Virus record (IMG/VR): IMGVR_UViG_3300028588_000057
Coordinates: 1 to 36,236 of that record
Origin: a virus
Lineage: Duplodnaviria; Caudoviricetes
Reading direction: 5' to 3' (one strand)
DNA: 36,236 nucleotides
The position numbers and the translations under genes are program-made. Position 1 is the stretch's first letter, and each line of letters starts with the position of its first letter. The notes beneath the pieces are model-generated. The model was not told the DNA's origin. It did no database searches and saw only the letters and a list, made by a program, of their open reading frames with translations. Of the stretch, positions 2,175 through 26,588 are shown one piece after another.

Positions 2175-2394
2175 GGCCCCTCCATCCACTTGGCGGCTTG
2201 ACGCCTTGGCTATCTTGCGTCACTCGGCCACTAATTGTACAAGAGAACGCTACGCTCTCAGCAGCGCAAATCATCCTCGCTCGCTTCGTACCTCGCTTCG
2301 CTCCGGTATTTACTTGCTTCGCTCTTGACAATCAGATTCTGCCTTCGTGCTGAGCAAGCTCAAGGGTCAACCACCGGCGCTACTTCCGGGGGCC
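2175..2394 (-). other. long structured non-coding element (fold-back with GC-GNA-GC mini-hairpins); candidate single-strand initiation site or ncRNA
   Basis: Nested minus-strand helices GGCCCC/GGGGCC, GGTGG-TTGAC-CCTTG/CAAGG-GTCAA-CCGCC, CTTGC/GCAAG, CTGATTGT/ACAATTAG, CAAGAG/CTCTTG, GTAAAT/ATTTGC; three mismatches resolve as G-T wobbles only on the minus strand. Confidence 0.7.
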
Positions 2395-4559: not shown

Positions 4560-5103
4560 GAGTGGCTCCAAGCGAATTAGTAGAGATCAGGGCATCCAAC
4601 TCCTGGGGACTGCATCCGGTGCCTGACTCGATGGCTAATATTATATACACATGTAGCAGCAAGGAGATAGGATCAATTCCCGTATGGTTTGAATCTAGTT
4701 AGCAGGCTAATAATTAGATAACTAGACTATTACTAAGGGACTGATTCTAAAAATATTAAGAAATTTGGTTGTGGTTCTATAGGTAGAACAACCGCCGCGA
4801 GCCTAAAAAGGGTCCAGCGCCCCCCTATCTAGTGGTAGGTAGACTAGGAGTGTAAATGGGAATGAGAATGATTAGCATTCAGGATTAGGCTAGCAGGCTA
4901 GAGGTTAGCTCCCTGGCAGCAAGTGGGGTCAGTAGATAGGTGTAGTAAGTAGGGGACTGACTGAATTTATTTGTGTTTGTTGCGTAATTACAACCCCATT
5001 TATATTGATCGGCGTAGAATTTGAGTTGTGGTGAATGCAGTTAGTTAAGTAGATAAGTAGTTAGTAATTAAGTAAGTCTATCTTAGATAGGCTGAGGTAA
5101 ACT

Positions 5104-5116
5104 CGCTCATTAACAA
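5104..5116 (+). promoter_or_regulatory. boxA-like antitermination element
   Basis: CGCTCATTAACAA, one mismatch from the GCTCTTTAACA boxA consensus, in the leader of the early operon. Confidence 0.4.
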
Positions 5117-5178
5117 TTCGGATTCAGTAGGACCATATTGGTCTAGGTGCGCCTGTATTGGCTCCTGGATCCTATGGT

Positions 5179-5248
5179 TAGGACATTGATTATCTAATCG
5201 ATATGCTAATGGTCTATAACCTAAGCCTATTAGTTAGTTAGTGTCCTA
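5179..5248 (+). other. long RNA hairpin in the early leader (possible RNase III site)
   Basis: TAGGACATTGATTA-T-CTAAT pairs with ATTAG-T-TAGTTAGTGTCCTA, with G-U pairs on the plus strand. Confidence 0.5.
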
Positions 5249-5329
5249 TCTGTAGAATGTTAAGTAGTAAAAATCAGTCGATGCTAGATTCCCACAATGA
5301 ATAGTTAGTAACTAACGGAGTAATTGAAA

Positions 5330-7099: not shown

Positions 7100-7102
7100 C
7101 GC

Positions 7103-7379: not shown

Positions 7380-7526
7380 ATGACTCTAGTAGAACAACTA
7401 TCTAATATATCCGCTGCTGACTGGATTGAATTCCTATTCAGTCTATCTCCTATCTTCTGGGTGCTGGTAGGTGTGGCCGGGACTCTCCTTACTATCAATG
7501 CAGTTAATGAGCACAAAGGGAACTAA
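7380..7526 (+). CDS. small membrane protein (48 aa; absent from ORF track)
   Basis: MTLVEQLSNISAADWIEFLFSLSPIFWVLVGVAGTLLTINAVNEHKGN; AAGGA RBS; one hydrophobic helix. Confidence 0.65.
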   Translation: MTLVEQLSNISAADWIEFLFSLSPIFWVLVGVAGTLLTINAVNEHKGN

Positions 7527-7532
7527 CTCATT

Positions 7533-10939: not shown

Positions 10940-11250
10940 TGAGCAATAATCAGAATGCACAAGTAACTAACGAACAACTTTTCTGGCTGGCCCATACTTG
11001 GAAGCTGGAACCTGAGCAGATTGCACAGCTATCTAGGCATCGGCTAACTAAAGTCCGAGCCAGCTACTTGCGGGAATGCCTAGCGGCCTCAGCCAATGGT
11101 AACTTGATTGATGGTTTCGTGCCTATCTACCAATATTGCACTAAGAAAGAGATCAAGGTAGGTAACCCAGATAAAGAATACTGGATGAGTGAACGAGTGC
11201 TAGGCACTTTGCGTATCGCCATCTTGCAGCCAGTAAGGGAACCAAAATGA
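10936..11250 (+). CDS. hypothetical protein
   Basis: 104 aa, coupled to the genes on both sides. Confidence 0.65.
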   Translation: MMSNNQNAQVTNEQLFWLAHTWKLEPEQIAQLSRHRLTKVRASYLRECLAASANGNLIDGFVPIYQYCTKKEIKVGNPDKEYWMSERVLGTLRIAILQPVREPK

Positions 11251-13166
11251 ATGCATTAGAAAGATTGAAGGCTAAGATAGCTGCTAAGCGGGAAGCGGAA
11301 TCCGTAGCGGCGCTCCACGCGCCCGCGCAGGCTATGAATGGGAACCAGGAAGTATTTGATTCTCCTGACAATGACTATGATTCTAACTCTCAACTACCTA
11401 ATCCAGCTATTGAAATCCTACCCACTGCTACTAAGGAACTATCTCCTGCCGCAGTAACTGACTTGAGAGCTAGTCTTAAAGCTAAATTGGCCGAGCAGAA
11501 TCAAGCTAGCTACACGCCTAACAAACCATACAATGCACAGCAGCAACAAGCTATTGATTGGGCATTGAGTGGGCACAGCTTTGCTATTACTGGACCTGCT
11601 GGTAGCGGCAAGACCTATACTGTGCAAGGTGTTATTGAGGCTCTCATTCAGTCAGGCCGCACCAATATTATCCAGACCATGAAGCATAAGTACCTGCCAG
11701 CTACTGGGGTGCCGGGAATCGTGGTGGTAGCCTTTACTAATACGGCGGTTGGTAATAGCAAGAAAGCTTTGCCTAGTGATCTACGTGGTAACGCACTTAC
11801 TATTCACAAGTATCTGGAATACGAGCCTGTATATGGTGACGTGCGTGGTGATGATGGTAAGATGAAAAGTACCATGCGATTTGAGCCACAGCGTAATACT
11901 GACAATCCTCAATCTAGTGAGATTACTACGGTAATTATTGAGGAAGCATCTATGGTGCCAGTAGACTTGTGGAATCGCTTGATTGAATCCATGCCAGCAC
12001 GTACACATAGCAAGTTGCAAATTATTATGGTTGGGGATATTCAACAGCTCCCACCAGTATTTGGCAAGTCCATCTACATTCATGCTATGGCTTCCGGTAT
12101 TAAGACAGTAGAACTAACTCACGTATACCGACAAGCTCTGGAGTCTCCTATCCTTGCACTAGCGCACCGGATTCTGGCAGGTAAGCAGATGGCGCACGCT
12201 GAGTTAATGGAGTATTCAGTAGATAAGCGGGACACTGGTAAGGGCATGGTATTTATCCGGCCCTGGAAGAATGCAATCAGCTCAGATGTAGCTATTGTTA
12301 ATATGATGAGCTTCCTACCTAAGATGATTGATGATGGGCTATATGATCCTGACCAAGATGTTATCTTGACTCCTTATAATGTGGAGTTTGGTCAAGAGGA
12401 AATGAATAAGATAGTAGCCAGTCATTACTCTAAGGTGCATCAGTCCCCAGTCTATGAGGTATTCACTGGTATTAATAAGAAGTATTTCCGAGTTGGTGAA
12501 CGGGTTTTGTATAACAAGTCTGAGGCTGTTATCCTGAGCATCGAACCTAACAAGGCTTATTACGGGAAGTGGCCCCGTCCAGCATCTAGTACCATGGACT
12601 ATCGTGGTATCGAGAAAGATAAAAGCAAGCTAAAGACTGTGCTGGCTGAGATGACAGACGAGGAAGTGCGAGCAGCTAATGACCGAGTGGATGAAATGCT
12701 CATGGCTATTGGTTCTCATACTGATGAGGACTCACCTACTGCTCGTGCTGCTAGCCATAAGATAGTAGTTAAGTCTAAGGATACAGATGCAGAGTACACA
12801 CTATCTGCTGCTGGTGAAATCAATACCTTGGAACTGGCCTATGCAATGACTGTACATAAGTCACAAGGTAGGGAATATAGGCGTGTATGGTTCATTACTC
12901 ATAAGTCCCAGGCTACTATGATCTATCGTGAGCTACTGTATACCGCAGTGACTCGGGCTAAGGAAGAACTGTATGTGATCTGTGAACCTAACTGCTTTGT
13001 TAAGGGGATCAATACTCAGAAGTATCCTGGCAAGACAGTGATGGAAAAGATCGAGTCATTTAATAGGGCTGAGAAGGTAGGACGGATCGTTAATCCTGAC
13101 TATATTCCTAAGCAACTGTTCCGGTTTATTAATAATACTACTGTTGATGAGCAGGTGAATGCATAG
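11247..13166 (+). CDS. RecD/Dda-like SF1B helicase
   Basis: GPAGSGKT, IIEEASMV, VGDIQQLPPV, YRQA, AYAMTVHKSQG, LLYTAVTRAK. Confidence 0.92.
   Translation: MNALERLKAKIAAKREAESVAALHAPAQAMNGNQEVFDSPDNDYDSNSQLPNPAIEILPTATKELSPAAVTDLRASLKAKLAEQNQASYTPNKPYNAQQQQAIDWALSGHSFAITGPAGSGKTYTVQGVIEALIQSGRTNIIQTMKHKYLPATGVPGIVVVAFTNTAVGNSKKALPSDLRGNALTIHKYLEYEPVYGDVRGDDGKMKSTMRFEPQRNTDNPQSSEITTVIIEEASMVPVDLWNRLIESMPARTHSKLQIIMVGDIQQLPPVFGKSIYIHAMASGIKTVELTHVYRQALESPILALAHRILAGKQMAHAELMEYSVDKRDTGKGMVFIRPWKNAISSDVAIVNMMSFLPKMIDDGLYDPDQDVILTPYNVEFGQEEMNKIVASHYSKVHQSPVYEVFTGINKKYFRVGERVLYNKSEAVILSIEPNKAYYGKWPRPASSTMDYRGIEKDKSKLKTVLAEMTDEEVRAANDRVDEMLMAIGSHTDEDSPTARAASHKIVVKSKDTDAEYTLSAAGEINTLELAYAMTVHKSQGREYRRVWFITHKSQATMIYRELLYTAVTRAKEELYVICEPNCFVKGINTQKYPGKTVMEKIESFNRAEKVGRIVNPDYIPKQLFRFINNTTVDEQVNA
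11300..11333 (+). repeat. PAS-like hairpin motif, copy 1
   Basis: ATCCGTAGC-GGCG-CTCCACG-CGCC-C-GCGCAGGCT. Confidence 0.7.
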
Positions 13167-13374
13167 GATAACTAAACAGTTACAGGACAGGGGATATTCA
13201 GTAGTTAAATCCCCTGATCCTTTGCAGCCAGTATTACCTGAGTTGCCAATGCCTTCACCTGACGCATCTAACTTAGTAATCTGGTCAGGCCAAGCTAATG
13301 ATCCTAACTATGAGCTACTCAGAGATAGATTCTGGGAAGTGCATAAGATGGATCTTATTATTTATATTCCTTAA
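13159..13374 (+). CDS. hypothetical protein
   Basis: 71 aa, overlaps the helicase stop. Confidence 0.55.
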   Translation: MHRITKQLQDRGYSVVKSPDPLQPVLPELPMPSPDASNLVIWSGQANDPNYELLRDRFWEVHKMDLIIYIP

Positions 13375-13383
13375 GGAACTGCT

Positions 13384-13734
13384 ATGCGTATGAAATCTAA
13401 AGATGTAATGGTAACTGTCCGTGGTACCCTGGTCCGGGAAACTGAGAAGGCTATCCAACTCAAGATTCCTAATCAGTACAAACATACTTGGTTCCCCCTC
13501 AGTACCATCCATGATCGGACCCAAAAACTTAATAAAGAATCTACTGAGATCTATGTAGAAATCCTAGTTCCTGAGTGGATCATTAAGGCTAAGATTAAGT
13601 CTGGTGAGATGACTGCTGGCAAGATGGCAGATCGGACTGCTGCGGACCTGGAGTTACCAGAGCGTCAGATGGATTCGGATAATGCTGGCTTGTCTGATGA
13701 TGATAACTACTTCCGTGGTGAGCCACATGACTGA
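13384..13734 (+). CDS. hypothetical small beta-rich phage protein
   Basis: TAAGGA RBS; RETEKAI...WFPLS...ILVPEWI pattern common in phage proteins. Confidence 0.7.
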   Translation: MRMKSKDVMVTVRGTLVRETEKAIQLKIPNQYKHTWFPLSTIHDRTQKLNKESTEIYVEILVPEWIIKAKIKSGEMTAGKMADRTAADLELPERQMDSDNAGLSDDDNYFRGEPHD

Positions 13735-13993
13735 TGAGCAGATTAAACTAATCACTGGTCTGGCTGCTAAAGCTCAGGCTAGAGTTAGGAAGGCTCAGAT
13801 AGATAAACAGAATGCAGAGATTGCGGCTACAAATAACTATAGCGCAGAGCTAAATGCAGCTGGAGAGATCCTTACCTCAGCCCAAAACATCTGCAAGCAT
13901 GATGGACTCAAGCTAGTAACTGAGCGCGCATTCAATGGTCAGGTCTATCAGCAACCTCCAGTATGTGTCTACTGTCATAAGAGGCTCACATGA
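13727..13993 (+). CDS. hypothetical protein with possible C-terminal Zn-binding motif
   Basis: Start moved to ATG 13727; CKH...CVYCH. Confidence 0.65.
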   Translation: MTDEQIKLITGLAAKAQARVRKAQIDKQNAEIAATNNYSAELNAAGEILTSAQNICKHDGLKLVTERAFNGQVYQQPPVCVYCHKRLT

Positions 13994-14238
13994 GTAACGT
14001 AGTCAAGCTAGTGCAACCTACTTACGAATCCATTCAAGCCCACTACTACAGTGGTAAGAAACTGGATCATGTAGATACCATCTTGGATCTTAATATCTAC
14101 CGGGATACTGCTGGCTACTGGGTTGAGCAACCTGCTGGTAGATCTAAGATGCGTGCATTCATTGGTGATGAGCGGGCCTATCATAAGTATCGTGATAGTA
14201 TGCAAGTCCTTGGTTATCGTGTGTGGTTAATGGGTTAA
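13990..14238 (+). CDS. hypothetical protein
   Basis: 82 aa, GAGG RBS, ATGA overlap. Confidence 0.65.
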   Translation: MSNVVKLVQPTYESIQAHYYSGKKLDHVDTILDLNIYRDTAGYWVEQPAGRSKMRAFIGDERAYHKYRDSMQVLGYRVWLMG

Positions 14239-14253
14239 GCCCTGGAGATAGTA

Positions 14254-14679
14254 ATGATTCCCTTTAATAAATTCGATCAGATGCAGTCCTCAGTTGGTAC
14301 TTACCGGAATCTGGTTAAGGAACTGAAGACTTATCAGAAGCTGTGTGAAGTTACTCTCTATTTTGCAGACACTGAATCTAGGAATAAGAAAGATAACTAT
14401 ACTGTAGGTAAGGTACGCTACGCACTTATGATGAGCGTGCTGGAACAACTAGTTCCTACTATCCTGCATCTTAAGGATCAGGGCATTGAGATGGATCAGG
14501 AGATTGATTACGTAGCTAATAAAGTTATCTCCTTCTTGGATGTGAAAGAAGTATTCCTGCATATGCTAGCTCCCCTTGAAACACCTGAGCCAGACCCGGC
14601 TAATGATGTGGAACTAGTTGGTAGTTATCCGATACTAGATCACTTCAATAAGAACAATGAAGGATTAGATAAGACCTGA
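14254..14679 (+). CDS. hypothetical protein
   Basis: 141 aa, GGAG RBS. Confidence 0.7.
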   Translation: MIPFNKFDQMQSSVGTYRNLVKELKTYQKLCEVTLYFADTESRNKKDNYTVGKVRYALMMSVLEQLVPTILHLKDQGIEMDQEIDYVANKVISFLDVKEVFLHMLAPLETPEPDPANDVELVGSYPILDHFNKNNEGLDKT

Positions 14680-14712
14680 GCAACTAACGCCTAGGCCCGA
14701 AAAAATTTCCGC

Positions 14713-14741
14713 TTGACCCGGCCCCGGCCGCCCCGTATAAT
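14713..14741 (+). promoter_or_regulatory. strong sigma70 promoter
   Basis: TTGACC-17 nt-TATAAT with an upstream A/T tract; the spacer is entirely G/C. Confidence 0.85.
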
Positions 14742-14825
14742 CGAATTTCGATAGGGGCACCGGCCCCGCGAAACAGTTAATAACTTCCCGCAGCTAACTG
14801 GCTGCATCTACTGAAAGGAACTACC

Positions 14826-15440
14826 ATGGACCAAGCTACGCAAGCTACTGAAGTCGTTGAGAAGGCATCTTTCCACTATCGTAAGAACAAAGACAGCGGC
14901 GTTAAGCGCGCTTCGGTAGAAGTTGATTACAAGGTTCCTACTACTGCGGGCCTGATCAGCTACCTGCAAGGTGATAACCAGAAAGTCAAGGACATGATCC
15001 GTGATGCAGTTCTGGGTGTTACCAACGGTCATCTGCGTAGCTTTGTTGATAGCGACGAGAACTTCGACCAGGCTAAGGCTGACCAACTCGGTGCAGAAGG
15101 TAAGCTCTCGCTGGAATACATCGCCAACCTGCCCAAGGCTGATCGTAACCAGGTTACCCGCGAAGCTCTGGAAGCATTTGCCAAGTCGTACATGGAAGTC
15201 ATCAAGGCTTCTACCGACAAGTCTGCTGCTAAGATCGAAGCTGCTGCTGGCCTGCTGGTTAACCGCTTTAATCCGATCCGTGGTGACGAAGCAGCTCTGG
15301 CTGTGATGGAAGGCCAACTGGCTATCTACGCAGAGAACGCTGGCGAAGAAGCTCTGGCAGAACACACTGCTGCTCTGAACTTCCTGGTTGCTAAGCTGGA
15401 AGATCTCCAGTCGGCCAAGATCACTGCTGACGACCTGTAA
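14826..15440 (+). CDS. probably highly expressed hypothetical protein, paralog of 5945..6601
   Basis: 204 aa with its own promoter, AAAGGA RBS and terminator; codons typical of highly expressed genes (CTG, GCT, AAC, ATC, CGT). Confidence 0.85.
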   Translation: MDQATQATEVVEKASFHYRKNKDSGVKRASVEVDYKVPTTAGLISYLQGDNQKVKDMIRDAVLGVTNGHLRSFVDSDENFDQAKADQLGAEGKLSLEYIANLPKADRNQVTREALEAFAKSYMEVIKASTDKSAAKIEAAAGLLVNRFNPIRGDEAALAVMEGQLAIYAENAGEEALAEHTAALNFLVAKLEDLQSAKITADDL

Positions 15441-15463
15441 TAGCCAGGCGTTAGTTGTGTCCC

Positions 15464-15492
15464 CCACCTGAGTAAGTGGACTAAACTGCTCA
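15464..15492 (+). other. small H-type RNA pseudoknot
   Basis: Stem 1 CCAC/GTGG; loop TGAGTA pairs with TGCTCA after an ACTAAAC linker. Confidence 0.5.
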
Positions 15493-15500
15493 ATGATTCT

Positions 15501-15554
15501 GGTGCTCTGCTGAAGCTAGTTAATATCTGGCTTTTAGCAGAGCATTTCTTTTTT
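15501..15554 (+). terminator. intrinsic terminator (long stem)
   Basis: GGTGCTCTGCTGAAGCTAG / CTGGCTTTTAGCAGAGCATT followed by TCTTTTTT. Confidence 0.75.
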
Positions 15555-15647
15555 CCAACTCGGTTTGAATACCTAGAAGTATCTAGAGTCTATCTTTTCT
15601 TCTACGTCCTTCCCAGGGCTTATAGGAAACGGGGATTTAATACTGAC

Positions 15648-15872
15648 ATGAGAGTCTATCAAGAGCACTGGGAGCGGATGAAGGTAGTAAGGCAGATATC
15701 ATTAGAGCGACCTAGGAAAAAGCATCTTAGTATTGGAGTGCTGGTCCGGAGGGAAGCTACTAGAGATTCAGCCTATGCTGCCTTGTTAGCTTCTGAAGGT
15801 AAGAGGTTCTTTATTAACCACGCATCCATTGGTGATACGTTAATACTGACATTGAGGATCACAGTAAAATGA
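15648..15872 (+). CDS. small basic hypothetical protein
   Basis: 74 aa, coupled to the next gene by an ATGA overlap. Confidence 0.6.
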   Translation: MRVYQEHWERMKVVRQISLERPRKKHLSIGVLVRREATRDSAYAALLASEGKRFFINHASIGDTLILTLRITVK

Positions 15873-16357
15873 GCGCACTAGAGAAGTTGAAAGCTAAATT
15901 GGCAGCAGCTAAAGCAGCGCAGGTAGTTAAATCCGAAGCTGTGGACGCAGTCCCAGCGCAGGCTGAGGCACTGGTAGCTAGCCCAATTGCTAATGGCAGT
16001 CCCACTAATGCAGTGGCGGCACCAGCCTTGCCAGCGCCTGTGCAACCAGCAGTCCTGGAAGTAAGTTCAGTAGTTGACTTGAATGTGGAGAATCCTGAGC
16101 ATCTTAGGTTCAAGGAATTCTTGCTTGAGCTTGAAGGTAAACTCAATGCTAAGATTCCTAGCTTTGCATACCAGCTACGTGACATTCATGCTAAGATGAA
16201 AGCTGATCCTAGCGTGGTTACTGCCATGAGTGATGAAGAGATTGGTCTAGTAATTAAGGGACTGGCATTGATGAAGAACGAAGTCATTGCTCCTAAGTCT
16301 GAGACTGGCGGTAAGCGAGCTAGCAGCAAGAAAGTAGTTACGGTGGACATGCTGTAA
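15869..16357 (+). CDS. hypothetical protein sharing its N-terminal peptide with the helicase
   Basis: MSALEKLKAKLAA vs helicase MNALERLKAKIAA; C-terminus VTVDML. Confidence 0.8.
   Translation: MSALEKLKAKLAAAKAAQVVKSEAVDAVPAQAEALVASPIANGSPTNAVAAPALPAPVQPAVLEVSSVVDLNVENPEHLRFKEFLLELEGKLNAKIPSFAYQLRDIHAKMKADPSVVTAMSDEEIGLVIKGLALMKNEVIAPKSETGGKRASSKKVVTVDML
15931..15964 (+). repeat. PAS-like hairpin motif, copy 2
   Basis: ATCCGAAGC-TG-T-GGAC-GCA-GTCC-CA-GCGCAGGCT. Confidence 0.75.
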
Positions 16358-16641
16358 TGAATGCCCTAGTAGCTGCTCTCTGGCTGGTTGCAGTCTCGGA
16401 TGCTAGCTTGAGTGATGCTAGAGTCTGGGCGGGCCAGCTACTTAGCAATGAAGATCACAAGGAATTGGATCAATACCAGCAGACCGCAGCTAACTACTCC
16501 AGTCTACTGTCTAAGTCTCTAGCTAATGAGATGTATATATTCCAGTACCAAGTGCCACTAGCTGCAATAGCAGAAGCCAAGTCCAGACTAATGGCTCTGG
16601 AAATAGAGAGGTTGAAACATAATGGCATTCTCAGACTATGA
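16357..16641 (+). CDS. hypothetical protein
   Basis: 94 aa, TAATG coupling. Confidence 0.6.
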   Translation: MNALVAALWLVAVSDASLSDARVWAGQLLSNEDHKELDQYQQTAANYSSLLSKSLANEMYIFQYQVPLAAIAEAKSRLMALEIERLKHNGILRL

Positions 16642-17614
16642 CTTTCTGGAAGAACCAGTCGAGGAACTGAATGTAGTTACTGACTGGCCGGAAGGTAAGA
16701 TTGATCCACGGTTAGCTCGCACTAGTTATTCCAGTGAGCTGACTTATCATGGTTGTCCTCGCAAGTATCAGCTACGTAAGCTGTCAGCTACTGCCCGAGT
16801 GGTAGAAGAGTGGCGAGGTGCAATGACTCTGGACTTTGGTAGCTTACTTGGTGAAGCTATTCAGGGTCTTATCTTTGGAGACAGCTACGAAAAAGTAGTT
16901 ATCCTAGCACTCAGTAAGTGGGATGCAGCATTGTTCCTAGAGAACGATAAGCAGAAGAAGTCTTTCTGGTATCTGCTCCACGCAATTGACATGTTCCAAG
17001 GTCACGTAGAGTCTGGCTTGCTTGAGGATTGGGAGCCAGTTTGGTTTACTAATCAGCACGGGGACTACGTACCTGCTACTGAGCTGGGTATTAAGATCAA
17101 GTTCCCAGATGGCCATGCGTATCGTGGTTACCTTGACTTGGTAATGAAGAACAAGTTAACTGGTCTGTACGCAGTGATGGATGTTAAGTCCGATTCAGGT
17201 GCTTTCATTCAACCTGGTAAGTACAAGAACTCAGGTCAGGGTATTGGTTATAGTGCAGTGCTGGATAAGATTGCACCTGGATTCACTGACTTTGTTGTCT
17301 ACTATCTGGTGTATCTGACTAAGCTGGAACGATGGGAGTTGCTAGAGTTTCCTAAGACTCGCCATCAACGTGCTCTCTGGTTACGGGATCGTATCTGGGA
17401 TCAGAATTCGCGCAGTGATCTGGTACGAACTGAAGGTAACTACGGAGTCTGGCCAATGCATGGTGAATCCTGCATGAGTTGGAACCGGGAGTGTGAATAC
17501 ATGGGAGTGTGCGATGGTAATACTAAGTTGCTCACTAAGCCATTAACTGTAGAAGATTTGGTAGAGGATGATAGTCCTTTCTCATTCATCTACGATGTTG
17601 AGGAGTTGCTATAA
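16622..17614 (+). CDS. Cas4/RecB-like PD-(D/E)XK exonuclease
   Basis: CPRKY, GYLDLV, VMDVKS, QxxGY and C-terminal C-x6-C-x5-C (Fe-S staple pattern). Confidence 0.85.
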   Translation: MAFSDYDFLEEPVEELNVVTDWPEGKIDPRLARTSYSSELTYHGCPRKYQLRKLSATARVVEEWRGAMTLDFGSLLGEAIQGLIFGDSYEKVVILALSKWDAALFLENDKQKKSFWYLLHAIDMFQGHVESGLLEDWEPVWFTNQHGDYVPATELGIKIKFPDGHAYRGYLDLVMKNKLTGLYAVMDVKSDSGAFIQPGKYKNSGQGIGYSAVLDKIAPGFTDFVVYYLVYLTKLERWELLEFPKTRHQRALWLRDRIWDQNSRSDLVRTEGNYGVWPMHGESCMSWNRECEYMGVCDGNTKLLTKPLTVEDLVEDDSPFSFIYDVEELL

Positions 17615-17916
17615 TGGACGAAACACTTAAGATGTTGGCAGCTAAGCTAGCTGATGCAGGCCGGACTGAACTGGCTCTGGGTTTGATAGTTGGTCATGCA
17701 ATGGCACAGAAAGATGCTGCTGACATGACTGCTGATAGCCAAGATGTTCGGATGGATTATCCAGACAGTAATGAGTTGGCGCGGATGGTTGCTGCCATCT
17801 CTGTTGTTAAGATCAAGCATGATACATTCCTGAATGATGACATCCTGCATCAAGTTGGTTTGACTCAAGCTGATTTGCAGGCTGCTGTTAAAACTCTGGG
17901 GACTGGAAATGGTTAA
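17614..17916 (+). CDS. hypothetical protein
   Basis: 100 aa, GAGGAG RBS, TAATG coupling. Confidence 0.65.
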   Translation: MDETLKMLAAKLADAGRTELALGLIVGHAMAQKDAADMTADSQDVRMDYPDSNELARMVAAISVVKIKHDTFLNDDILHQVGLTQADLQAAVKTLGTGNG

Positions 17917-18715
17917 GCTGGTAGATAAGGAAGAGGAACTCACCAGACGTATCATGGTGTTTGGCCCGCCTAAAGCTGGTAAGACCCAGTTGGTAGGTCA
18001 CCTTGCTGAACGATTCAATCTGCATTGGTTTGATCTGGAGTCAGGATCTAATACTCTGATGAAGATGCCTAAGGATCTCAAGTCCAAGGTTGAGTTGTTC
18101 ACAGTACCAGATACCAAAGATACTCCGACTGCCTTTGCTACTTGCCTCAAGGTAATGAAAGGTGGTTCACATAGCATCTGCCGCAAGCATGGTAAGGTAG
18201 CTTGTGTAGTCTGCAAGAAAGATGCTCCAACAGAATTCGATACTTTCAACCTTGGTTCACTTGGGACTGAGGATTGCTTGGTGTTCGATAGTATCACTCA
18301 GGTTGTCAACTCTGTCCGCGCCATCATTTGTGCCGGCAAGCCTGATGACTACAAGCTGCTTCAAGATGACTGGGGCCAGATGGGTAACCTAATGGATATG
18401 TTCCTCAGTTATATCCAAGCAGCTAGACATACCAACGTAGTCTGCATTAGCCATGAGATGATGGTACCAACTGTCGATAAGTCTGAGAAGATTGTACCTA
18501 CCGCTGGGACACGGAACTTCTCTCGTAACTCAGCTAAGTATTTTGATGACATTGTGTATGCTGCTGTTGAGAATGGTAAGCATACATTCAGTTCTAGTTC
18601 TACTTACCGGGCTAAGATTCTTACTGGTAGTAGATCTGGTGTTGCCTTGGAGAAATCTAAGGATGGGGCTAGATTGTTGGATCTGTGGGATAAGCAGTCC
18701 AGCGACGCAGCCTAG
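17909..18715 (+). CDS. Sak4-like/AAA_24 P-loop ATPase (probable single-strand annealing protein)
   Basis: GPPKAGKT, WFDLESG, VFDSITQ, DWG, ISHE; Zn-finger-like insertion CRKHGKVACVVC; lies between the nuclease and the SSB-like gene. Confidence 0.8.
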   Translation: MVKLVDKEEELTRRIMVFGPPKAGKTQLVGHLAERFNLHWFDLESGSNTLMKMPKDLKSKVELFTVPDTKDTPTAFATCLKVMKGGSHSICRKHGKVACVVCKKDAPTEFDTFNLGSLGTEDCLVFDSITQVVNSVRAIICAGKPDDYKLLQDDWGQMGNLMDMFLSYIQAARHTNVVCISHEMMVPTVDKSEKIVPTAGTRNFSRNSAKYFDDIVYAAVENGKHTFSSSSTYRAKILTGSRSGVALEKSKDGARLLDLWDKQSSDAA

Positions 18716-18779
18716 TACCTGGCAATTAAGCCAACCTGCACTAAACCTAAACTCTCTTAAATCTAATTAAGGAAATACC

Positions 18780-19277
18780 ATGTCCGATACTCTGTTTGAT
18801 CTGCTTGAAGGTACTGTTGCTGACCTGCATGACATGCCCGTATTCAAGCCTTGGCCTGCTGGTTCCTATCTGGTGGAGCTGGAAACAAGCATTGAAGAAA
18901 TGGATCGTAAGTTGGCAGATGGCACTGAGATTGTTGCCAAGGTTCCTAAGCTGGTCTACAAGTTCCTGGAAGTTATTGATCTGAAAGATCCTAATGCTGA
19001 AGCGCCACGCGAAGATGCTAAGATTGTCAGCAATATCTTCCTCAGTAACAAGGCTGGTGAACGTAGCGAGTTCGGTGAAGGTCAACTGAAGATGACTCTC
19101 GTGGCTGTGCAAGGTATGTACCCAGAAGCCAAGAACAACGGTGAGTTGATTGTCCAAGCTAACGGCACTCGTCTGGCAATTACGGTTGAAGTTAAGAAGC
19201 GTAAGGACAAGGACACCCAGGAAATTCGTGAAGAGAACCGTATCATCACGGTTGTCAACCCGGAAGAACTGGGTTAA
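18780..19277 (+). CDS. putative single-stranded DNA-binding protein (DUF669-like)
   Basis: PWPAGSYLVEL start, beta-rich, ENRI near the C-terminus; position after the Sak4-like gene. Confidence 0.55.
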   Translation: MSDTLFDLLEGTVADLHDMPVFKPWPAGSYLVELETSIEEMDRKLADGTEIVAKVPKLVYKFLEVIDLKDPNAEAPREDAKIVSNIFLSNKAGERSEFGEGQLKMTLVAVQGMYPEAKNNGELIVQANGTRLAITVEVKKRKDKDTQEIREENRIITVVNPEELG

Positions 19278-19301
19278 GCAGTCAGTAGTAAGTAAGTAAC
19301 T

Positions 19302-19336
19302 AGGGTGGGCGGGGTTAACTGCCCTTCCCATCCTTT
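19302..19336 (+). terminator. hairpin or weak terminator before the polymerase gene
   Basis: AGGGTGGG...CCCATCCT stem followed by a short T run. Confidence 0.45.
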
Positions 19337-19364
19337 AGTCGTTTCTAGCTCCAAGGATTTATTC

Positions 19365-21665
19365 ATGCGTATCATGTTAGTTATTTCCCCAGAGGAAAAA
19401 GAGCGTAGCCTGTTCAGGATGCAAGATCATCTGGCAGGTCACACAGTTAAAGTTTATTCTGGAGAAGTAGTTACAGCTGAGCATCTGGTAGGTATGGCTG
19501 CCCAAGCTAAACTGGATGCGATTATTACTACGCGGGAAGATGTACTGCTGGCTCTGTTGCCGCAAGATCGTAGTGCTAAGGCTAAGATTAGTAACTATGC
19601 TGGATCCTATTTCACTGGTTACCGAGTCCCCATTCTTATTATCCCTGTGCTGCATAGCTTGCTGACTAGTAAGTATGGTAACTGGCTGATGTCTCGGCTG
19701 ATATCTAAAGTTACTAAGCCAGAGAAATGGCGTAAGACTAGTGCATTCGAGTGGACTTGGATGAAAGAAGAGTCCCACTATGAGCAGTGTATTAGTCTGA
19801 TGCGTAGTGCTACTGCTTGTGCAGTTGACATTGAGACTGTGCGGGGCGAGCTTCCTACTATCACTTCAGTATCTTACAGTATTCTGCTAGCGGATATGTC
19901 TACCAGGACTTTTGTTATGGAGATGGATTCCATGCAGAAGGTCTACTGGATGCGACAGCTTAATGCTACCAGGACTGCTAAGATTATGCAGAACGGTAAA
20001 TATGACTCTGCTTACTTCTTTGCATGGGGCGCACCTCTAGTTAATTACATTGCTGATACTGTCAATGCAATGCACGCTTGGTATGCTGAACTCCCTAAGG
20101 ACTTGGCATTTATCTCTGCACTCTTTGTGCGGGAATCTATGTACTGGAAGGACTTAGCAGCATCCGGTGATAAGGTTGAGCAGCTCCAGTATAATGCATT
20201 GGATACTTGGGCTACCCTGGAAGCATTCATTGCTTGGAGCCAAGAGTCTCCTGACTGGGCTAAGTTCAACTACGTACATGAGTTTACCCAAGTGCCTATC
20301 TGCCATGCGATGGAGATGCGTGGACTCAAACGAGATATGGGCCGGATGGCAGTGCACGTAGAGAAGCTAGAAGTAGAAGCTATCGGCACACTTGCTAAGA
20401 TCCGGGCCCGCACCAACACACCTAATTTCAATCCTAATAGTCACCTTCAAGTTAAAACATTGATGCGCTGTATTGGTATCAATGATCCTAAATCATCTGA
20501 TGAATCCGCACTTACTTCTGCTATCTTGCTCCACCCCCTGAATGAAGCAGTACTAGAACCGATTCTAGATTACCGAGGTCAGCTTAAACTTCTCAGTACT
20601 TACATGCCTACTGACTCCAGTGCAATTCTTAAGGAGAAAAAGAAAGGTGGTAAAGTTGAGCTTAAAGCTAAAGAATTCCGTGGCCAAATGCTTTGGTCTA
20701 TTAATCCTCATGGCACTGATACTGGTCGTAAGGCAGCTAAAGAGCATCACTTCTGGTGTGGATTTAATGTCCAGAATATTCCAGCTAGAGCATGGGAAGT
20801 TAAGGATACTCTAATAGCTCCAGATGAGTATGACATTTGGGAATTCGACTTTAGCCAAGCTGAAGCACGAGGTGTAGGTTACTGCTCAGGAGATGAGAAT
20901 CTACTTGCTGCTGTTAATAGCCCCCGTGATTTCCACTCAGTCAATGCCAGCGCATTCTTTGGTATCCCGTATGAGGAAATCTTCAGAGATGAAATTCCAG
21001 AGTATTGGGATAATGAGAAGCAGGTACTAGTTCCTAAGCAAAAGAAGAAACAGCTTAATGTGGAGATTCGAGATCTGTCTAAGCGTACTAACCACGGCGC
21101 TAACTACAACATGGGTGAAGCAGTTATGGTTGAGACTATGGGCGTGGCTAACGTCCGGAAAGCTCAAGCATTGCTGAATTTGCCTAAGCATTACTCTCTT
21201 AGGGAAGTTACTCGCTTCCTTCTTAACCGATATGATGCTACCTATCCTAAGGTTAAGGGCTTGTACTATAACTGGATTAAGAACCAGGTACGTACTCGTA
21301 AGATGTTGACCGGACCTACCGGCTGGACTCGTTATTGCTTTGGGGATCCTAGCAGTAATAAGCCTGATCTGAATATGTATGTTGCTCATGTGACTCAGAA
21401 CCTTAATGCAATGGTGCTAGATGAGGCCGTGCTTAAGCTCTGGAATAAATATGGCAAAGGAGAAATGGTGCTGTTTCTGGCGCAGATTCATGATAGCTTC
21501 CTTTGCCTTATCAGGAAAGGTTCTAAGCAAGAAGAGATTGCTAAGGACATTGCAGCTATGATGACATTCGCAGTACCAGTCACAGATTGTACAGGGGTCA
21601 CACGGGATATGATTGTCCCAGTGGACGCAAAGAAAGCAGGTCACCGTTGGTCGGGACGGGACTAA
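19365..21665 (+). CDS. family A DNA polymerase with 3'-5' exonuclease and a degenerate N-terminal UDG-like domain
   Basis: Exo VDIET, QNGKYD, YNALD; pol TDTGR, NVQNIP, motif A DFSQAEAR, motif B KRTNHGANY, motif C QIHDS; start moved to ATG 19365 (AAGGA RBS). Confidence 0.93.
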   Translation: MRIMLVISPEEKERSLFRMQDHLAGHTVKVYSGEVVTAEHLVGMAAQAKLDAIITTREDVLLALLPQDRSAKAKISNYAGSYFTGYRVPILIIPVLHSLLTSKYGNWLMSRLISKVTKPEKWRKTSAFEWTWMKEESHYEQCISLMRSATACAVDIETVRGELPTITSVSYSILLADMSTRTFVMEMDSMQKVYWMRQLNATRTAKIMQNGKYDSAYFFAWGAPLVNYIADTVNAMHAWYAELPKDLAFISALFVRESMYWKDLAASGDKVEQLQYNALDTWATLEAFIAWSQESPDWAKFNYVHEFTQVPICHAMEMRGLKRDMGRMAVHVEKLEVEAIGTLAKIRARTNTPNFNPNSHLQVKTLMRCIGINDPKSSDESALTSAILLHPLNEAVLEPILDYRGQLKLLSTYMPTDSSAILKEKKKGGKVELKAKEFRGQMLWSINPHGTDTGRKAAKEHHFWCGFNVQNIPARAWEVKDTLIAPDEYDIWEFDFSQAEARGVGYCSGDENLLAAVNSPRDFHSVNASAFFGIPYEEIFRDEIPEYWDNEKQVLVPKQKKKQLNVEIRDLSKRTNHGANYNMGEAVMVETMGVANVRKAQALLNLPKHYSLREVTRFLLNRYDATYPKVKGLYYNWIKNQVRTRKMLTGPTGWTRYCFGDPSSNKPDLNMYVAHVTQNLNAMVLDEAVLKLWNKYGKGEMVLFLAQIHDSFLCLIRKGSKQEEIAKDIAAMMTFAVPVTDCTGVTRDMIVPVDAKKAGHRWSGRD

Positions 21666-21681
21666 ATAGATAGGGGTTAGT

Positions 21682-21936
21682 ATGGAATCAGTAAGAATTT
21701 GGAGTGTGAAAGAAGGTGACAATCTCACCCATGTAGTAGCCATGGACTATATCACAGGGGAATCTGCCAGGGTAACTGATGACCAGTTCATGAAGATAGT
21801 AACTACAGGCACTCGGTACTGGGTCAATGCGCCAGCAGAGGTCAAGCGGTTCTCCGACATAGTAAATCATGGCCGCCCACTGCAAGACTACGCAACCTTC
21901 CCAGCATATACCAATGACAGATCAAGAGAAGCCTGA
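21682..21936 (+). CDS. hypothetical protein
   Basis: 84 aa, between the polymerase and the DUF3987-like gene. Confidence 0.55.
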   Translation: MESVRIWSVKEGDNLTHVVAMDYITGESARVTDDQFMKIVTTGTRYWVNAPAEVKRFSDIVNHGRPLQDYATFPAYTNDRSREA

Positions 21937-23194
21937 TCTAATTAGTGAGTACTTGGCACTTGTTAGTGATACTGAGGCCCCAGTTCTTGCCCATAGATGG
22001 AGTTGCATCGCTGGCATTGGAGCACTGCTAGGACGATCTGTCTGGTTTGATGCTGGGATTGACGTGTACTATCCTAATATGTACGTAATGCTTGTAGGAA
22101 CTCCAGGCTCCAGGAAGTCTACTGCCATTAAGATGTTCCGGCGGATCTTGAGTAAGGCTGGATATAATAACTTTGCTGCTGAACGTACCAGTAAAGAAAA
22201 GTTCCTAATGGATATGGCTGCTGGTATTGGAGTCGAGGGGCAAACAGATGGTAGCGAGTTCCTGAGTGAGAATCTGTTCAGTGGACTCAATGGCATCGAG
22301 AACATGGACACCAGTGATGAGCGCAAAGTCTTTATTGTGGCTGATGAATTTAACAACTTCTTTGGCAATAACATTGTTGATTTCGTCTCACTCCTGGGAG
22401 ACTTCTGGGATTACAAGGGTACGTATACTACCCGACTCAAGAACTCAGAGTCTATTGTAATTCCTAATCCATGTATTAGCATTCTGACTGGCAATACGCC
22501 TGAGCAGATTCATGCAACCTTTCCACCAGCAGTGATTGGGCAGGGTTTCTTTAGCCGGCTCATGTTTATTTACACGCATGAAACTGGCAAGTCGATACCA
22601 TTTCCGACCAAGCTATCTGATGACTTGATAGATCCATTTGTTAAGAAGCTGCAATCTCTTAGCCAAGTCTGTCAGGGTGAGATTGGATTGAGTGATGAGG
22701 CCAGGGAGTTACTAAGTCGTATTTACCATCGTCGAGATAAAGAAGTCGTACCTGATCCTAGGTTTAGCTACTACTCAACTCGACGGTTTACTCAACTTCA
22801 GAAACTTAGCATGATCCATGCCATTGCAGATTACTCACCAGTAATTGAATTGAAGCATGTGCGCCGAGCTTACACAGTGATGCGCTATACTGAACACTCA
22901 ATGCCACGAGCACTTGGTAGCTTAGGCCGCGCCAAGAATAGTGAGGTCATGTATAAGTTGTTGGAGTTGCTTGAGAAGACTATGCGTCCAATGGAGCTGT
23001 TGGAACTTTGGCCATACTTCTTGAATGACCTAGGATCTGCCAGGGAACTGGGAGAGCTAGTGAATAACCTGGTACTTGGTGGTAAGGTAAACCAGGTAGA
23101 GAAAGGAATCATTATTAAACGTGCAGTCTGGGAAGAGTCTGCTAGCTCTGACTATGACTGGGATTATTTATCTAATGAAGAGAGAGGTTTGTAA
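21914..23194 (+). CDS. DUF3987 (YfjI-like) P-loop ATPase, putative replicative helicase
   Basis: YPNMYVMLVGTPGSRKSTA (Walker A), VADEF (Walker B), GFFSRLMF; start uncertain (21869 or 21914). Confidence 0.75.
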   Translation: MTDQEKPDLISEYLALVSDTEAPVLAHRWSCIAGIGALLGRSVWFDAGIDVYYPNMYVMLVGTPGSRKSTAIKMFRRILSKAGYNNFAAERTSKEKFLMDMAAGIGVEGQTDGSEFLSENLFSGLNGIENMDTSDERKVFIVADEFNNFFGNNIVDFVSLLGDFWDYKGTYTTRLKNSESIVIPNPCISILTGNTPEQIHATFPPAVIGQGFFSRLMFIYTHETGKSIPFPTKLSDDLIDPFVKKLQSLSQVCQGEIGLSDEARELLSRIYHRRDKEVVPDPRFSYYSTRRFTQLQKLSMIHAIADYSPVIELKHVRRAYTVMRYTEHSMPRALGSLGRAKNSEVMYKLLELLEKTMRPMELLELWPYFLNDLGSARELGELVNNLVLGGKVNQVEKGIIIKRAVWEESASSDYDWDYLSNEERGL

Positions 23195-23847
23195 TGAGTG
23201 ATGCAATTAAAGGTATGACTGCTATGACCCAGGAAGAACTGGATGAGCATATTGCTAAGATGCGTGAAGCTGACAAGCAGATTAATAAAGATGCAATTCC
23301 CCCAATGACTATTGGCGAAGCTATGGGGGAGACCCCTTCTCCTTTTGTAGACCCCAAAACTTACACTGCTCGCTACTATGGGATGGAGCAGATCCATGCT
23401 AAGCAGATTAATCGACTTGCTGATGAGGGCAATGCTCACGCTGTTACTCTCCGTAATTCTGGCGTACTTGTATCTGCTAACGGTCCTAGGACCAGTGGTG
23501 GTTACGTGGTTGCTACTGGAGAAACTGGGGAAGCTGACCGGATTTATTACCTGATCCAAAAGATTAATCAGTGGGGTCTTGATCGTAAGTTGATTCGAGA
23601 AGAAGGTTGTACCGCCTTGGCTCAGATGAAGAAGCTAAAAGAGGAAGTGCAAGAGATTGAAGATGCTATCTTGACTGGTGATGAGATCGAGATGGTAGAC
23701 GGTATCGGTGATAGCATGGTTGTGATTATCCAACTCTGCCGACTTACCGGAGTCACAGTAGAGGAAGCTCTGGAACGAGCATATGCCCAGATTAAGTATC
23801 GCAAGGGCTATATGCAAGATGGTGTCTTTATCAAGGAAACTAAGTAA
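23194..23847 (+). CDS. MazG-like NTP pyrophosphohydrolase with an N-terminal extension
   Basis: KLKEEVQEIEDAI...DGIGDSMVV...AYAQIKYRKG..DGVFIKE. Confidence 0.8.
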   Translation: MSDAIKGMTAMTQEELDEHIAKMREADKQINKDAIPPMTIGEAMGETPSPFVDPKTYTARYYGMEQIHAKQINRLADEGNAHAVTLRNSGVLVSANGPRTSGGYVVATGETGEADRIYYLIQKINQWGLDRKLIREEGCTALAQMKKLKEEVQEIEDAILTGDEIEMVDGIGDSMVVIIQLCRLTGVTVEEALERAYAQIKYRKGYMQDGVFIKETK

Positions 23848-23849
23848 TC

Positions 23850-24206
23850 ATGCCTACAGTCACTAAGAAAGCTACTGTCCTGCCTAAGGAAGTACGCACT
23901 CCTAGTGGCTGCATTCCTCTTACTGTGGATGCAGTCACCAAGTATATCAATGGCAAGCATGGAGAAATTACCAGACTTCAGAAGATGCAGACTGAGTTAG
24001 TAGCAGAGAATGAAGAACTTAAGAAAAAATTGGCTGAGCCGATTCCTGAAAGTTCGGAGTTGCCTAAGACAGTTAAGGCTTTGTTAAATCAAGCTAGAGC
24101 AGGAATGGATCATCTAGCAGAGATTTGTATACACACAGGTATGACTGAAGAACAGGCACGGGCTTATCAGTGCTACCTAGATACGATCATTGAGCTGAGA
24201 CCATAA
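23850..24206 (+). CDS. hypothetical coiled-coil protein
   Basis: 118 aa, AAGGA RBS. Confidence 0.65.
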   Translation: MPTVTKKATVLPKEVRTPSGCIPLTVDAVTKYINGKHGEITRLQKMQTELVAENEELKKKLAEPIPESSELPKTVKALLNQARAGMDHLAEICIHTGMTEEQARAYQCYLDTIIELRP

Positions 24207-25033
24207 TGGCAATAGCAACTAGACATCCAGATGGGACTCTCAAGACTGGTAAGGAGATAGAGATGGAAATGGAAGCAGCTAAAGCCCATAACGCAGCTCT
24301 CCCTCAACCTGAGCCAGCTCCGCTTCCTGCTCCTGATCCCAGCAACCCTAAAGACTTCTACGGCGTCCAGAAGTTACCAGTGCATCTGGTGCCTCCAGGG
24401 GCTGTAGCTTACATGGCCATGGGACTATTCGAGGGGATGCTTAAGTATGGCCGAGCCAACTGGAGAGCTACTAAGGTTCGTGCGTCAGTCTACTATGCGG
24501 CTGGTATGAGACACAGAGCTAAGTGGTTTGAAGGCCAGGACAAGGATCCGCTCACACACGTCCACCATCTCGCCTCTAGTCTGGCTTGTGATGCTATCAT
24601 TGTTGATGCTATGCTTAATGGCACTCTGATTGATGACCGCAATTACCGGGTTAGTGCTGGCTATGACAATCTAGATGCTGAGGTAGAAGAAGTAATGAAG
24701 CATCTGGCTCAGCTGCATAAGGATAAGGATCCAGTGCAATATAGCAGATTGACTCAGCCAGATCCGAAGCCGCATGGCGAAGCCACGGCGCAGGCTAAGA
24801 ATAAGACTTGGCATGTAGCTAACTGGGCCAAAGAAGCCTTAGTTGATTTCGGCAGTGGGATTACAACTAGATGGTTAGTAGCTGTTCCAGGTTCCTCTGA
24901 GTATTGTTTCTGCTACGATGCTAAGCCTGAAAGTTATACTCGGTTTAAAGTTAAATTAGGTGACCCTAAACTGACTGCGAGTCAACAAGAATATTATCCT
25001 GTAACCCACTGGGAGGACATGACTAATGGCTGA
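24206..25033 (+). CDS. DUF5664-like dATP/dGTP diphosphohydrolase domain protein with a C-terminal extension
   Basis: NPKD..G..KLP.HLVP, GMLKYGRANWR, RH..KWFEGQD.DP...HHLA. Confidence 0.8.
   Translation: MAIATRHPDGTLKTGKEIEMEMEAAKAHNAALPQPEPAPLPAPDPSNPKDFYGVQKLPVHLVPPGAVAYMAMGLFEGMLKYGRANWRATKVRASVYYAAGMRHRAKWFEGQDKDPLTHVHHLASSLACDAIIVDAMLNGTLIDDRNYRVSAGYDNLDAEVEEVMKHLAQLHKDKDPVQYSRLTQPDPKPHGEATAQAKNKTWHVANWAKEALVDFGSGITTRWLVAVPGSSEYCFCYDAKPESYTRFKVKLGDPKLTASQQEYYPVTHWEDMTNG
24762..24796 (+). repeat. PAS-like hairpin motif, copy 3
   Basis: ATCCGAAGC-CG-CA-TGGC-GAA-GCCA-CG-GCGCAGGCT. Confidence 0.75.
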
Positions 25034-26072: not shown

Positions 26073-26588
26073 ATGAACGATCTGATTGATATTGCAAAAG
26101 ATGTTGACGGTTTCCGTGATGGCCAACTCGGCTTTAAGATTGACCCTGTAAGCGGTGACTATCACTATTATCTCTGGACTGCCAAGAAGGCTCAGGATCC
26201 TAAAGCTACTGAACCAGCTATGCATTGGGTGTTTAAGGGTAACCAAACTTGGTACGATTGCTACATTAGCAAGCAAATCTTTTCCCCTGCACAACGTGAT
26301 GAGCTAGCAGGTCAGACAGCTAACTTCACTCGAGTCCCGGCTGAGGAACCTAGTACCTTTGACCAGAACAAGCAAGCAGTAGATATTAAAGGTTACCGAG
26401 TTCTGAGCGACCAAGAGAAGGAAACTATTAATTACCTTAAAGTATTGGAACAAGAACTTCTTAATTACCTGGATGCTGCTAAAGCTGAGCCTGGCACCAA
26501 CCAACGCAGCCTGGCACTAGGAGTTACTAACATCCAGCAAGGTTTCATGTGGGCTATTCGTGCAATTGCTCGGCCTAATGGAGAGTGA
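26073..26588 (+). CDS. acb2: Acb2-like anti-CBASS cyclic-nucleotide sponge fused to an unknown N-terminal domain
   Basis: C-terminal IKGYRVLS..E...IN..K...R.LALG.T.IQQGFMWAIRAIARP matches the Acb2 signature as recalled; TAAGGA RBS. Confidence 0.85.
   Translation: MNDLIDIAKDVDGFRDGQLGFKIDPVSGDYHYYLWTAKKAQDPKATEPAMHWVFKGNQTWYDCYISKQIFSPAQRDELAGQTANFTRVPAEEPSTFDQNKQAVDIKGYRVLSDQEKETINYLKVLEQELLNYLDAAKAEPGTNQRSLALGVTNIQQGFMWAIRAIARPNGE

What the first reader, a model, noticed from the sequence alone, without database searches (positions are those of the whole stretch)
11300..24796. 34-35 nt hairpin repeat conserved at nucleotide level inside three genes
Seen: ATCCG[T/A]AGC-N16-17-GCGCAGGCT at 11300-11333, 15931-15964 and 24762-24796. 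The variable middles differ in sequence but each forms a stem (GGCG/CGCC; TG-GGAC/GTCC-CA; CG-TGGC/GCCA-CG), two of them closed by C-GNA-G triloops. In copy 3 the 5' half is read in a different frame (DPKP versus SVA/SEA), so conservation is not driven by protein sequence. All copies fall in linker-like protein regions and stand out as GC-rich patches.
Basis: seen in the sequence. Interest (0 to 1): 0.8.

Follow-up and report, generated by a model that had tools for sequence, protein, structure and literature searches.

The report
Priming-type hairpins hidden in phage genes
A soil phage with no recognisable primer-making enzyme carries three copies of a 34-35 base hairpin written into protein-coding genes, and these likely act as single-strand signals that bring in the host's priming machinery to copy the lagging DNA strand.

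Summary
The repeat is real: 3 copies, 0 in 100 shuffles, rare codons, and a stem pair that changes G-C/T-A/C-G. The conserved flanks are part of the fold: CC-GWA-GCNG-[cap]-CN'GC-GCA-GG-CTR, a G.A-rich internal loop under a variable cap. The window is a PaP2/119X-like podophage with an MCM-type helicase and PolA but no detectable primase, a gap already noted for 119X (PMC4889955). The exact element is private to this phage: none in 29 related records, and a close relative lacks copy 1 at the same place. Its frame matches the tips of long single-strand fold-backs in several relatives and the core of phiX174/ColE1 primosome sites, and it ends in CTG/CTA, the DnaG start triplets. All copies lie on the predicted lagging-strand template. 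Best reading (0.55): a miniature single-strand initiation signal for host priming; an mRNA site is the main rival (0.2). It fails membership of n'-pas, Frpo and N4 promoters. No function was tested. The scan had not noted this element, but noted similar priming hairpins on other DNA.

The parts
11300..11334 (+). Copy 1 (with the purine after CT: CTA), codons 18-29 of the Dda-like helicase gene
15931..15965 (+). Copy 2 (CTG), C-GCA-G triloop, in the N-terminal linker of the 162-aa gene 15869-16357
24762..24797 (+). Copy 3 (CTA), C-GAA-G triloop, in the dATP/dGTP diphosphohydrolase gene 24206-25033
2192..2375 (-). Long imperfect fold-back in the terminase-portal gap, 6 CGNAG words on this strand and 0 on the other; its tip (2306-2291) reads CC-GGA-GC-GAA-GC-GA-GG, the same frame as the three repeats; promoter boxes degenerate
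21917..23194 (+). DUF3987 MCM-like AAA+ helicase, labelled 'primase' in relatives but without a primase domain
19365..21665 (+). Family A DNA polymerase
11247..13166 (+). Dda/RecD2-like SF1 helicase, host gene of copy 1
4572..5323 (.). Gene-free divergence point between late (leftward) and early (rightward) genes; cumulative GC skew minimum at 4556, maximum at 27156; inferred origin region

Best explanation
The three repeats are covarying hairpins on the sense strand of the early arm of a phage with no detectable primase, and they likely work as single-strand initiation signals: when the fork would expose this strand as lagging template, each copy is predicted to fold into a G.A-rich hairpin that recruits host priming proteins. 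Shown: the sequence, the pairing, the strand, the CTG/CTA triplet directly 3' of the hairpin, the shared frame with fold-back tips in relatives and with phiX174/ColE1 primosome-site cores, and no primase hit among 42 window proteins. Inferred: outward forks from the 4.6-5.3 kb gap; the phage's MCM-type helicase running on the leading template and leaving the lagging template to the host; folding that resists SSB; priming either by PriA-type loading of DnaB-DnaG (a moving primosome, so few sites suffice, as in ColE1) or by DnaG directly at the CTR (as at the G4 origin). I split the 0.55 roughly 0.25 PriA-type, 0.2 direct DnaG, 0.1 an unrecognised phage factor. Position is inferred to be flexible, which would let the signal arise in whichever protein linker tolerates it.
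For: No primase domain by Pfam, PHROG domain cover or NCBIfam; DUF3987 protein is MCM-like (best PDB hit MCM3, E 7e-4); PMC4889955 (passages) names relative 119X as a case of missing primase with possibly non-canonical priming. DNA-type triloops in 2 of 3 copies; mini-hairpins mark G4, ssiA and N4 start sites and bind SSB poorly (PMC13037366, passages). CTA, CTG, CTA follow the hairpin; gamma-proteobacterial DnaG starts at CTG and CTA (PMC2978363 section 13); G4 hairpin I is followed by CTACTG at the annotated origin. A core stem-RA-GC-GNA-GC-GM-stem is in 6 of 7 reference loci (phiX174, ColE1, ID18, PJNS002, an IncX3 plasmid, pYKBM022; not G4) and at the tips of long fold-backs in G005 (2), G037, G008, G010 and this window. 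G018 and G037 carry a 3x3 GNA/GNA loop with capped stem and GGCT, the only such hits besides one in G013 and the window's three, 0 in 10 shuffles of the window. 11 of 12 hand-picked non-P5 fold-backs lie on the sense strand of their arm; the 4 in the convergence gap are on the early-sense strand, where this window has the three repeats and no long fold-back.
Against: Sense strand is also the mRNA strand, and skew cannot separate replication from coding bias. The exact element is absent from 29 related records and a close relative lacks copy 1 in place. A covariance model of the three copies scores neither the phiX174 site nor the family tips (best E 0.93), so the likeness is architectural and found after the fact. 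The closest phiX174 match (CC-GAA-GCGG...CCGC-TGA-GG) is not kept in ID18 or PJNS002. The repeats lack the GC-GNA-GC core itself. No copy lies on the - strand of the 8.7 kb late arm at 27.5-36.2 kb. PaP2, PaMx41, Tiera and EBPR3 show neither element, so this is not the whole clade's answer. A purine after CT three times has chance 1 in 8. About 10 kb of the 46,350-nt contig is outside the window and could encode a primase.
Confidence: 0.55

Rival explanations
1. The hairpins act in the early mRNA as binding or processing sites for one phage or host protein that reads the 3x3 G.A loop.
For: All three are on the sense strand; RNA parameters give the same fold, including CC/GG, in 3 of 3 + strand copies; copies 1 and 2 start 53 and 62 nt after start codons of genes with similar N-termini.
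Against: GNA triloops are weak in RNA (PMC13037366); no G-U pair among the 27 cells (weak, small n); copy 3 is 556 nt into its gene; no Rfam match at the sites.
Confidence: 0.2
2. A DNA site for a phage protein with a job other than priming, such as helicase loading, recombination or a nicking or packaging mark.
For: Flank letters AT and CT are fixed though unpaired; the element is private to this phage, as are many of its small genes; Sak4, exonuclease and Dda are encoded.
Against: No candidate binder was identified; strand and frame match priming-type elements in relatives.
Confidence: 0.12
3. A small selfish REP-like palindrome that inserts in frame into tolerant linkers.
For: Absent in place in a close relative; sits in variable linkers; the scan reported such repeats in other phages (e1-7988656, unchecked).
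Against: Only 3 copies, one strand, middles fully diverged yet paired; no target duplication seen; no multi-copy family in bacterial genomes (40 single hits) or viral contigs; the relative's whole linker is replaced rather than showing a clean empty site.
Confidence: 0.08
4. N4-type hairpin promoters for a phage RNA polymerase.
For: C-GNA-G triloops in 2 of 3 copies; a 1628-aa virion protein exists.
Against: Loop not conserved, although N4 polymerase reads the loop (PMC13037366); no RNA polymerase family hit and no D-x-DGD motif in 42 proteins; with + as template the transcripts would be antisense.
Confidence: 0.04
5. Chance or protein-level convergence on an Ala-Gln-Ala linker.
For: All three 3' halves read A-Q-A; folding z-scores are weak.
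Against: 0 in 100 shuffles; frame shift in copy 3; rare codons; 3 of 3 full hairpins against 2 of 40 and 2 of 50 in chance matches.
Confidence: 0.01

Closest known systems
n'-pas / ssiA primosome assembly sites (phiX174 F-G gap, ColE1 ssiA)
   Same: Short ssDNA hairpin with a G.A-rich internal loop framed by GC pairs; the phiX174 gap holds CC-GAA-GCGG...CCGC-TGA-GG; ColE1 uses ssiA to load PriA-DnaB-DnaG for the lagging strand (PMC3167613, passages).
   Different: The GC-GNA-GC mini-hairpin core is replaced by a longer variable cap; the loop is 3x3; copies are inside genes; the model does not score these sites.
G4 complementary-strand origin (direct DnaG priming)
   Same: Mini-hairpin-type stem with a DnaG start triplet just 3' of it.
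   Different: One 35-nt hairpin, no sequence likeness; the G4 origin has further hairpins (recalled).
RSF1010 ssiA/ssiB read by primase RepB'
   Same: Size and layout: 6-nt 5' tail, 21-nt hairpin with C-GAA-G loop, 3' tail; protein reads tail and stem base, not the cap (PMC4434180, PMC13037366, passages).
   Different: No cognate AEP primase found; no GTG start; all three copies on one strand.
Frpo-type single-stranded promoters (F plasmid)
   Same: Relatives carry long fold-backs that pair -35/-10-like boxes, with tips like this element (PMC9849209 passages).
   Different: The three repeats have no long stem and no promoter boxes.
Phage N4 virion RNA polymerase promoters
   Same: C-GNA-G triloop hairpins.
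   Different: Loop varies; no such polymerase detected.

Membership tests
n'-pas (PriA primosome assembly site) | GC-GNA-GC mini-hairpin closed by an RA/GM loop and short stem (core derived here from six loci; only phiX174 and ColE1 are known sites, the ColE1 placement recalled) | tested here: not met
   Absent from the three repeats; present in the long fold-back at 2306-
n'-pas (PriA primosome assembly site) | Lies on the strand exposed as lagging template | tested here: inconclusive
   Fits gene direction and skew, but the origin is inferred
n'-pas (PriA primosome assembly site) | Stimulates PriA and loads DnaB on SSB-coated ssDNA | not testable with these tools
   needs biochemistry
G4-type DnaG priming site | CTG (or CTA) immediately 3' of a hairpin | tested here: met
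   CTA, CTG, CTA
G4-type DnaG priming site | Sequence or multi-hairpin likeness to the G4 origin (multi-hairpin layout recalled) | tested here: not met
   No model match to L262; no shared flanking fold
G4-type DnaG priming site | Primer made by DnaG plus SSB alone | not testable with these tools
   needs biochemistry
RSF1010 ssiA/ssiB | About 21-nt hairpin with short fixed tails | tested here: met
   20-21 nt hairpin, 7-nt flanks
RSF1010 ssiA/ssiB | Cognate AEP primase encoded by the element | tested here: inconclusive
   None among window proteins; about 10 kb not seen
RSF1010 ssiA/ssiB | GTG start motif in the 3' tail | tested here: not met
   3' tail is GCAGGCT
Frpo single-stranded promoter | Long fold-back pairing -35 and -10 boxes | tested here: not met
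   None around the three copies; met in relatives' long elements
N4 vRNAP promoter | Conserved GGA/GAA triloop on a 5-bp stem | tested here: not met
   Loops TCCAC, GCA, GAA
N4 vRNAP promoter | Virion RNA polymerase encoded | tested here: inconclusive
   No family hit or motif; the 1628-aa protein was not folded
REP-type repeat | Many copies on both strands, shared with host genomes, with a cognate transposase | tested here: not met
   3 copies, one strand, no multi-copy family in 185,579 species genomes by exact pattern; no transposase hit

The most novel reading that the evidence does not exclude
Part of the primase-less PaP2/119X-related phage clade outsources priming to folded single-strand signals: long Frpo-like fold-backs tipped with a primosome-site core in several relatives, and in this phage a 35-base stand-alone version that has moved into reading frames and can be gained and lost in protein linkers. 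That would be a dsDNA lytic phage coupling its own MCM-type helicase and PolA to host priming at in-gene ssDNA hairpins.
Probability: 0.35. Interest if true: 0.78.

Novelty: new variant of a known kind. Interest (0 to 1): 0.58.

Why it matters
A survey of dsDNA virus replication lists phage 119X among the few cases with a helicase and polymerase but no primase, and leaves the priming route open (PMC4889955). This element and the long fold-backs in relatives give concrete, short, synthesizable candidates for that route, testable with purified host proteins or an M13 ssi rescue. They also show a structured DNA signal overprinted on coding sequence in two reading frames, which gene-centred annotation misses. 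The limit: the cultured model phages PaP2 and PaMx41 showed neither element, so the answer may cover only part of the clade.

Tried and rejected
Exact or relaxed patterns in viral contigs gave 26, 16 and 50 loci, one match each; 1 of the 26 closes a 7-bp stem; judged chance. Bacterial genomes: 40 single hits. Polymerase query found no IMG/VR relative. Pattern with 2 mismatches: single hits in 9 of 38 records. De novo hairpin-family scans of 89 loci and of 29 whole or near-whole records (24 of the 38 handles fetched, five of them cut at 40,000 nt) found no equal family; one search timed out and was replaced. Covariance model: only the 3 training copies below E 1 in the window, 0 matches in 73 sources, 1.22 Mb. 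Rfam: nothing at the sites. No RNA holder listed. Compost runs gave no cover at copy 3 and only loose ends around copy 2, so those two sites are untested in the relative. No helicase fragment of that relative was found. Hidden primase: two conserved unknown proteins (9986-10939, 14826-15440) folded with pLDDT 88.7 and 92.8, mostly helical, no Foldseek match at E 0.001 and best VIA Z 5.0 and 6.5 to unrelated helical proteins (Atlas); other unknown proteins, the polymerase N-terminus and the 1628-aa protein were not folded. Plasmid RSF1010 and review PMC3008174 were not held. Literature: ten searches showed no description of such an element in this phage group; classic primosome-site papers are outside the library, and supplements were not read.
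Full report
Observation. The pattern occurs three times on the + strand at the stated places and never in 100 shuffles. RNA parameters close CC/GG over a 3x3 GWA/GCA loop in all three + strand copies; DNA parameters give the inner hairpin. Folding energies are not exceptional (z +0.2 to -1.6). The fixed letters force rare codons (5.0e-4, 3.9e-4, 9.4e-5 given the peptides) and copy 3 is in another frame at its 5' half. Chance flank matches elsewhere seldom fold so: 2 of 40 in bacterial genomes, 2 of 50 in viral contigs.

Setting. The window is most of a podophage related to PaP2, 119X, PaMx41, Tiera and Aeromonas P5 (helicase 33-36% identical). Late genes run left from about 4.6 kb and from the right end to 27.6 kb; early genes run right from 5.3 to 27.5 kb; cumulative GC skew turns at 4556 and 27156. 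It encodes a Dda-like helicase, exonuclease, Sak4, PolA and a DUF3987 protein. The DUF3987 protein is annotated 'primase' in relatives but is an MCM-like AAA+ helicase over its whole length. PMC4889955 (passages) classes DUF3987 as SF6 replicative helicases, usually paired with a primase, and names 119X as a notable case where the primase is absent. Family scans and folds of two conserved unknown proteins found no primase. The source contig is 46,350 nt, so about 10 kb was not seen.

Distribution. The exact element is private. It was not found in 89 related loci, in 29 whole or near-whole relatives, or by a covariance model over 1.22 Mb; the model finds no fourth copy in the window. A relative in four compost runs of one study, mostly 85-95% alike, matches up to 11288 and then reads unrelated sequence across the start of copy 1, rejoining at 11538. 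Whether it holds a copy elsewhere is unknown; copies 2 and 3 were not covered.

What the relatives do have. Following mini-hairpin words led to long intergenic fold-backs in G005, G008, G010, G012, G018, G037 and P5 whose 3' arm holds TTGA-N16/18-TAAGCT-like boxes paired with upstream sequence (22 hand-picked sites; an unbiased census gave 15 sites in 9 of 30 records, some probably chance, none in the window, PaP2, PaMx41, Tiera or EBPR3). This is the layout of Frpo single-stranded promoters (PMC9849209, passages). CGNAG words are strongly one-stranded in them. Their tips share the frame of the three repeats: CC-G(N)A-GC-GNA-GC-GA-GG in G005, G037, G008, G010 and in the window's own long fold-back at 2192-2375 on the - strand; GC-GNA-G..C-GTA-GC-GGCT with a C-GAA-G cap in G018 and G037. 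Of 12 non-P5 sites 11 are on the sense strand of their arm, and the four in the convergence gap are on the early-sense strand, the strand of the three repeats.

Known priming signals. The phiX174 F-G gap holds CC-GAA-GCGG...CCGC-TGA-GG, the only such match beside the window's three among 20 relaxed hits in 1.22 Mb. That part is not kept in ID18 or PJNS002. What phiX174, ColE1, ID18, PJNS002 and two plasmid matches share is a GC-GNA-GC mini-hairpin closed by an RA/GM loop and a short stem (6 of 7 loci, G4 not). The repeats keep the outer frame but replace the mini-hairpin by a longer cap, so they are not n'-pas members, and the model does not score those sites. Each repeat is followed by CTA or CTG, the start triplets of gamma-proteobacterial DnaG (PMC2978363 abstract and section 13), as G4 hairpin I is followed by CTACTG at its annotated origin. 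RSF1010 ssiA has the same size and is read at the tail and stem base (PMC4434180, passages). PMC13037366 (passages) reports that such mini-hairpins are much less stable as RNA, occur at G4, ssiA and N4 start sites and bind SSB poorly. PMC5778457 and PMC3167613 (passages) describe PriA loading at the phiX174 site and ColE1 lagging-strand priming from ssiA. PMC5703833 and PMC5449611 (passages) added only background.

Mechanism. Most likely (0.55), forks run outward from the divergence gap; the phage helicase moves on the leading template (3' to 5' direction of MCM-type helicases is recalled), the + strand of the early arm becomes single-stranded, and the repeats at about 6.7, 11.4 and 20.2 kb from the skew minimum fold and recruit host priming, through PriA-type loading or DnaG directly. 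Only the sequence features, strand and gene content are shown; origin, folding in vivo and the protein partner are inferred. The host is unknown. The main rival is an mRNA site (0.2), because the sense strand is also the transcript. Other DNA-binding roles (0.12), a selfish palindrome (0.08), N4-type promoters (0.04) and chance (0.01) follow. Points against the best reading: private distribution, no copy on the late arm's - strand at 27.5-36.2 kb, no element in the cultured PaP2 group, and a likeness to known sites that is architectural and was noticed after the fact.

Novelty. Ten literature searches showed no report of these elements in this group; older subscription papers and supplements were not seen. 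The scan's notes hold nothing for this genome or sequence but several priming hairpins on other DNA, which are unchecked leads. Verdict: a real element, a new variant of single-strand initiation signals if the reading holds; interest 0.58.

Noticed in passing
window 2192-2375 (-); G005, G008, G010, G012, G018, G037 (e.g. G037:C1 near 22500 +, 38200 -, 530 -): Family of long Frpo-like single-strand fold-backs with paired TTGA..TAAGCT boxes and primosome-site-like tips, up to three or four per genome; may be a finding in its own right.
   Followed up: partly
L027 (Aeromonas phage P5) near 5010, 12160, 18020, 38020, 45120: Five copies of an inverted TTGACA-N17-TATACT-type pair enclosing two GNA-loop hairpins (three-way junction).
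   Followed up: partly
window 5945-6601, 14826-15440, 9350-9772, 15869-16357: Similar acidic-hydrophobic C-terminal tails (ITALDL, ITADDL, ISASDL, VTVDML; homologue P0122 ends VTADDL), suggesting a shared docking motif; 5945 and 14826 are paralogues.
   Followed up: no
window 11247 and 15869 gene starts: Both proteins begin with a similar helix (MxALExLKAKxAA), kept across the family in front of a variable linker.
   Followed up: partly
window 26073-26588 and 27283-27513: Acb2/Tad1-like and Tad2-like anti-defence sponge genes, beside MazG and dATP/dGTP diphosphohydrolase genes.
   Followed up: no
window 9986-10939 and 14826-15440: Core family proteins (65 and 72 homologous sequences in the fetched loci) with confident models but no structural match.
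   Followed up: partly
window 18780-19277: Conserved 165-aa gene between Sak4 and PolA, position typical of a single-strand binding protein; no family or PDB hit.
   Followed up: partly
window 27575-28240 (-): 221-aa gene with an HExxH motif after the large virion protein, with no homologue in the fetched relatives.
   Followed up: no
window 6602-7532: Second gene-poor gap with inverted repeats (6701-6735 / 7070-7104) and a TTGACG..ATAAT promoter-like site near 7105-7132; alternative origin candidate.
   Followed up: no
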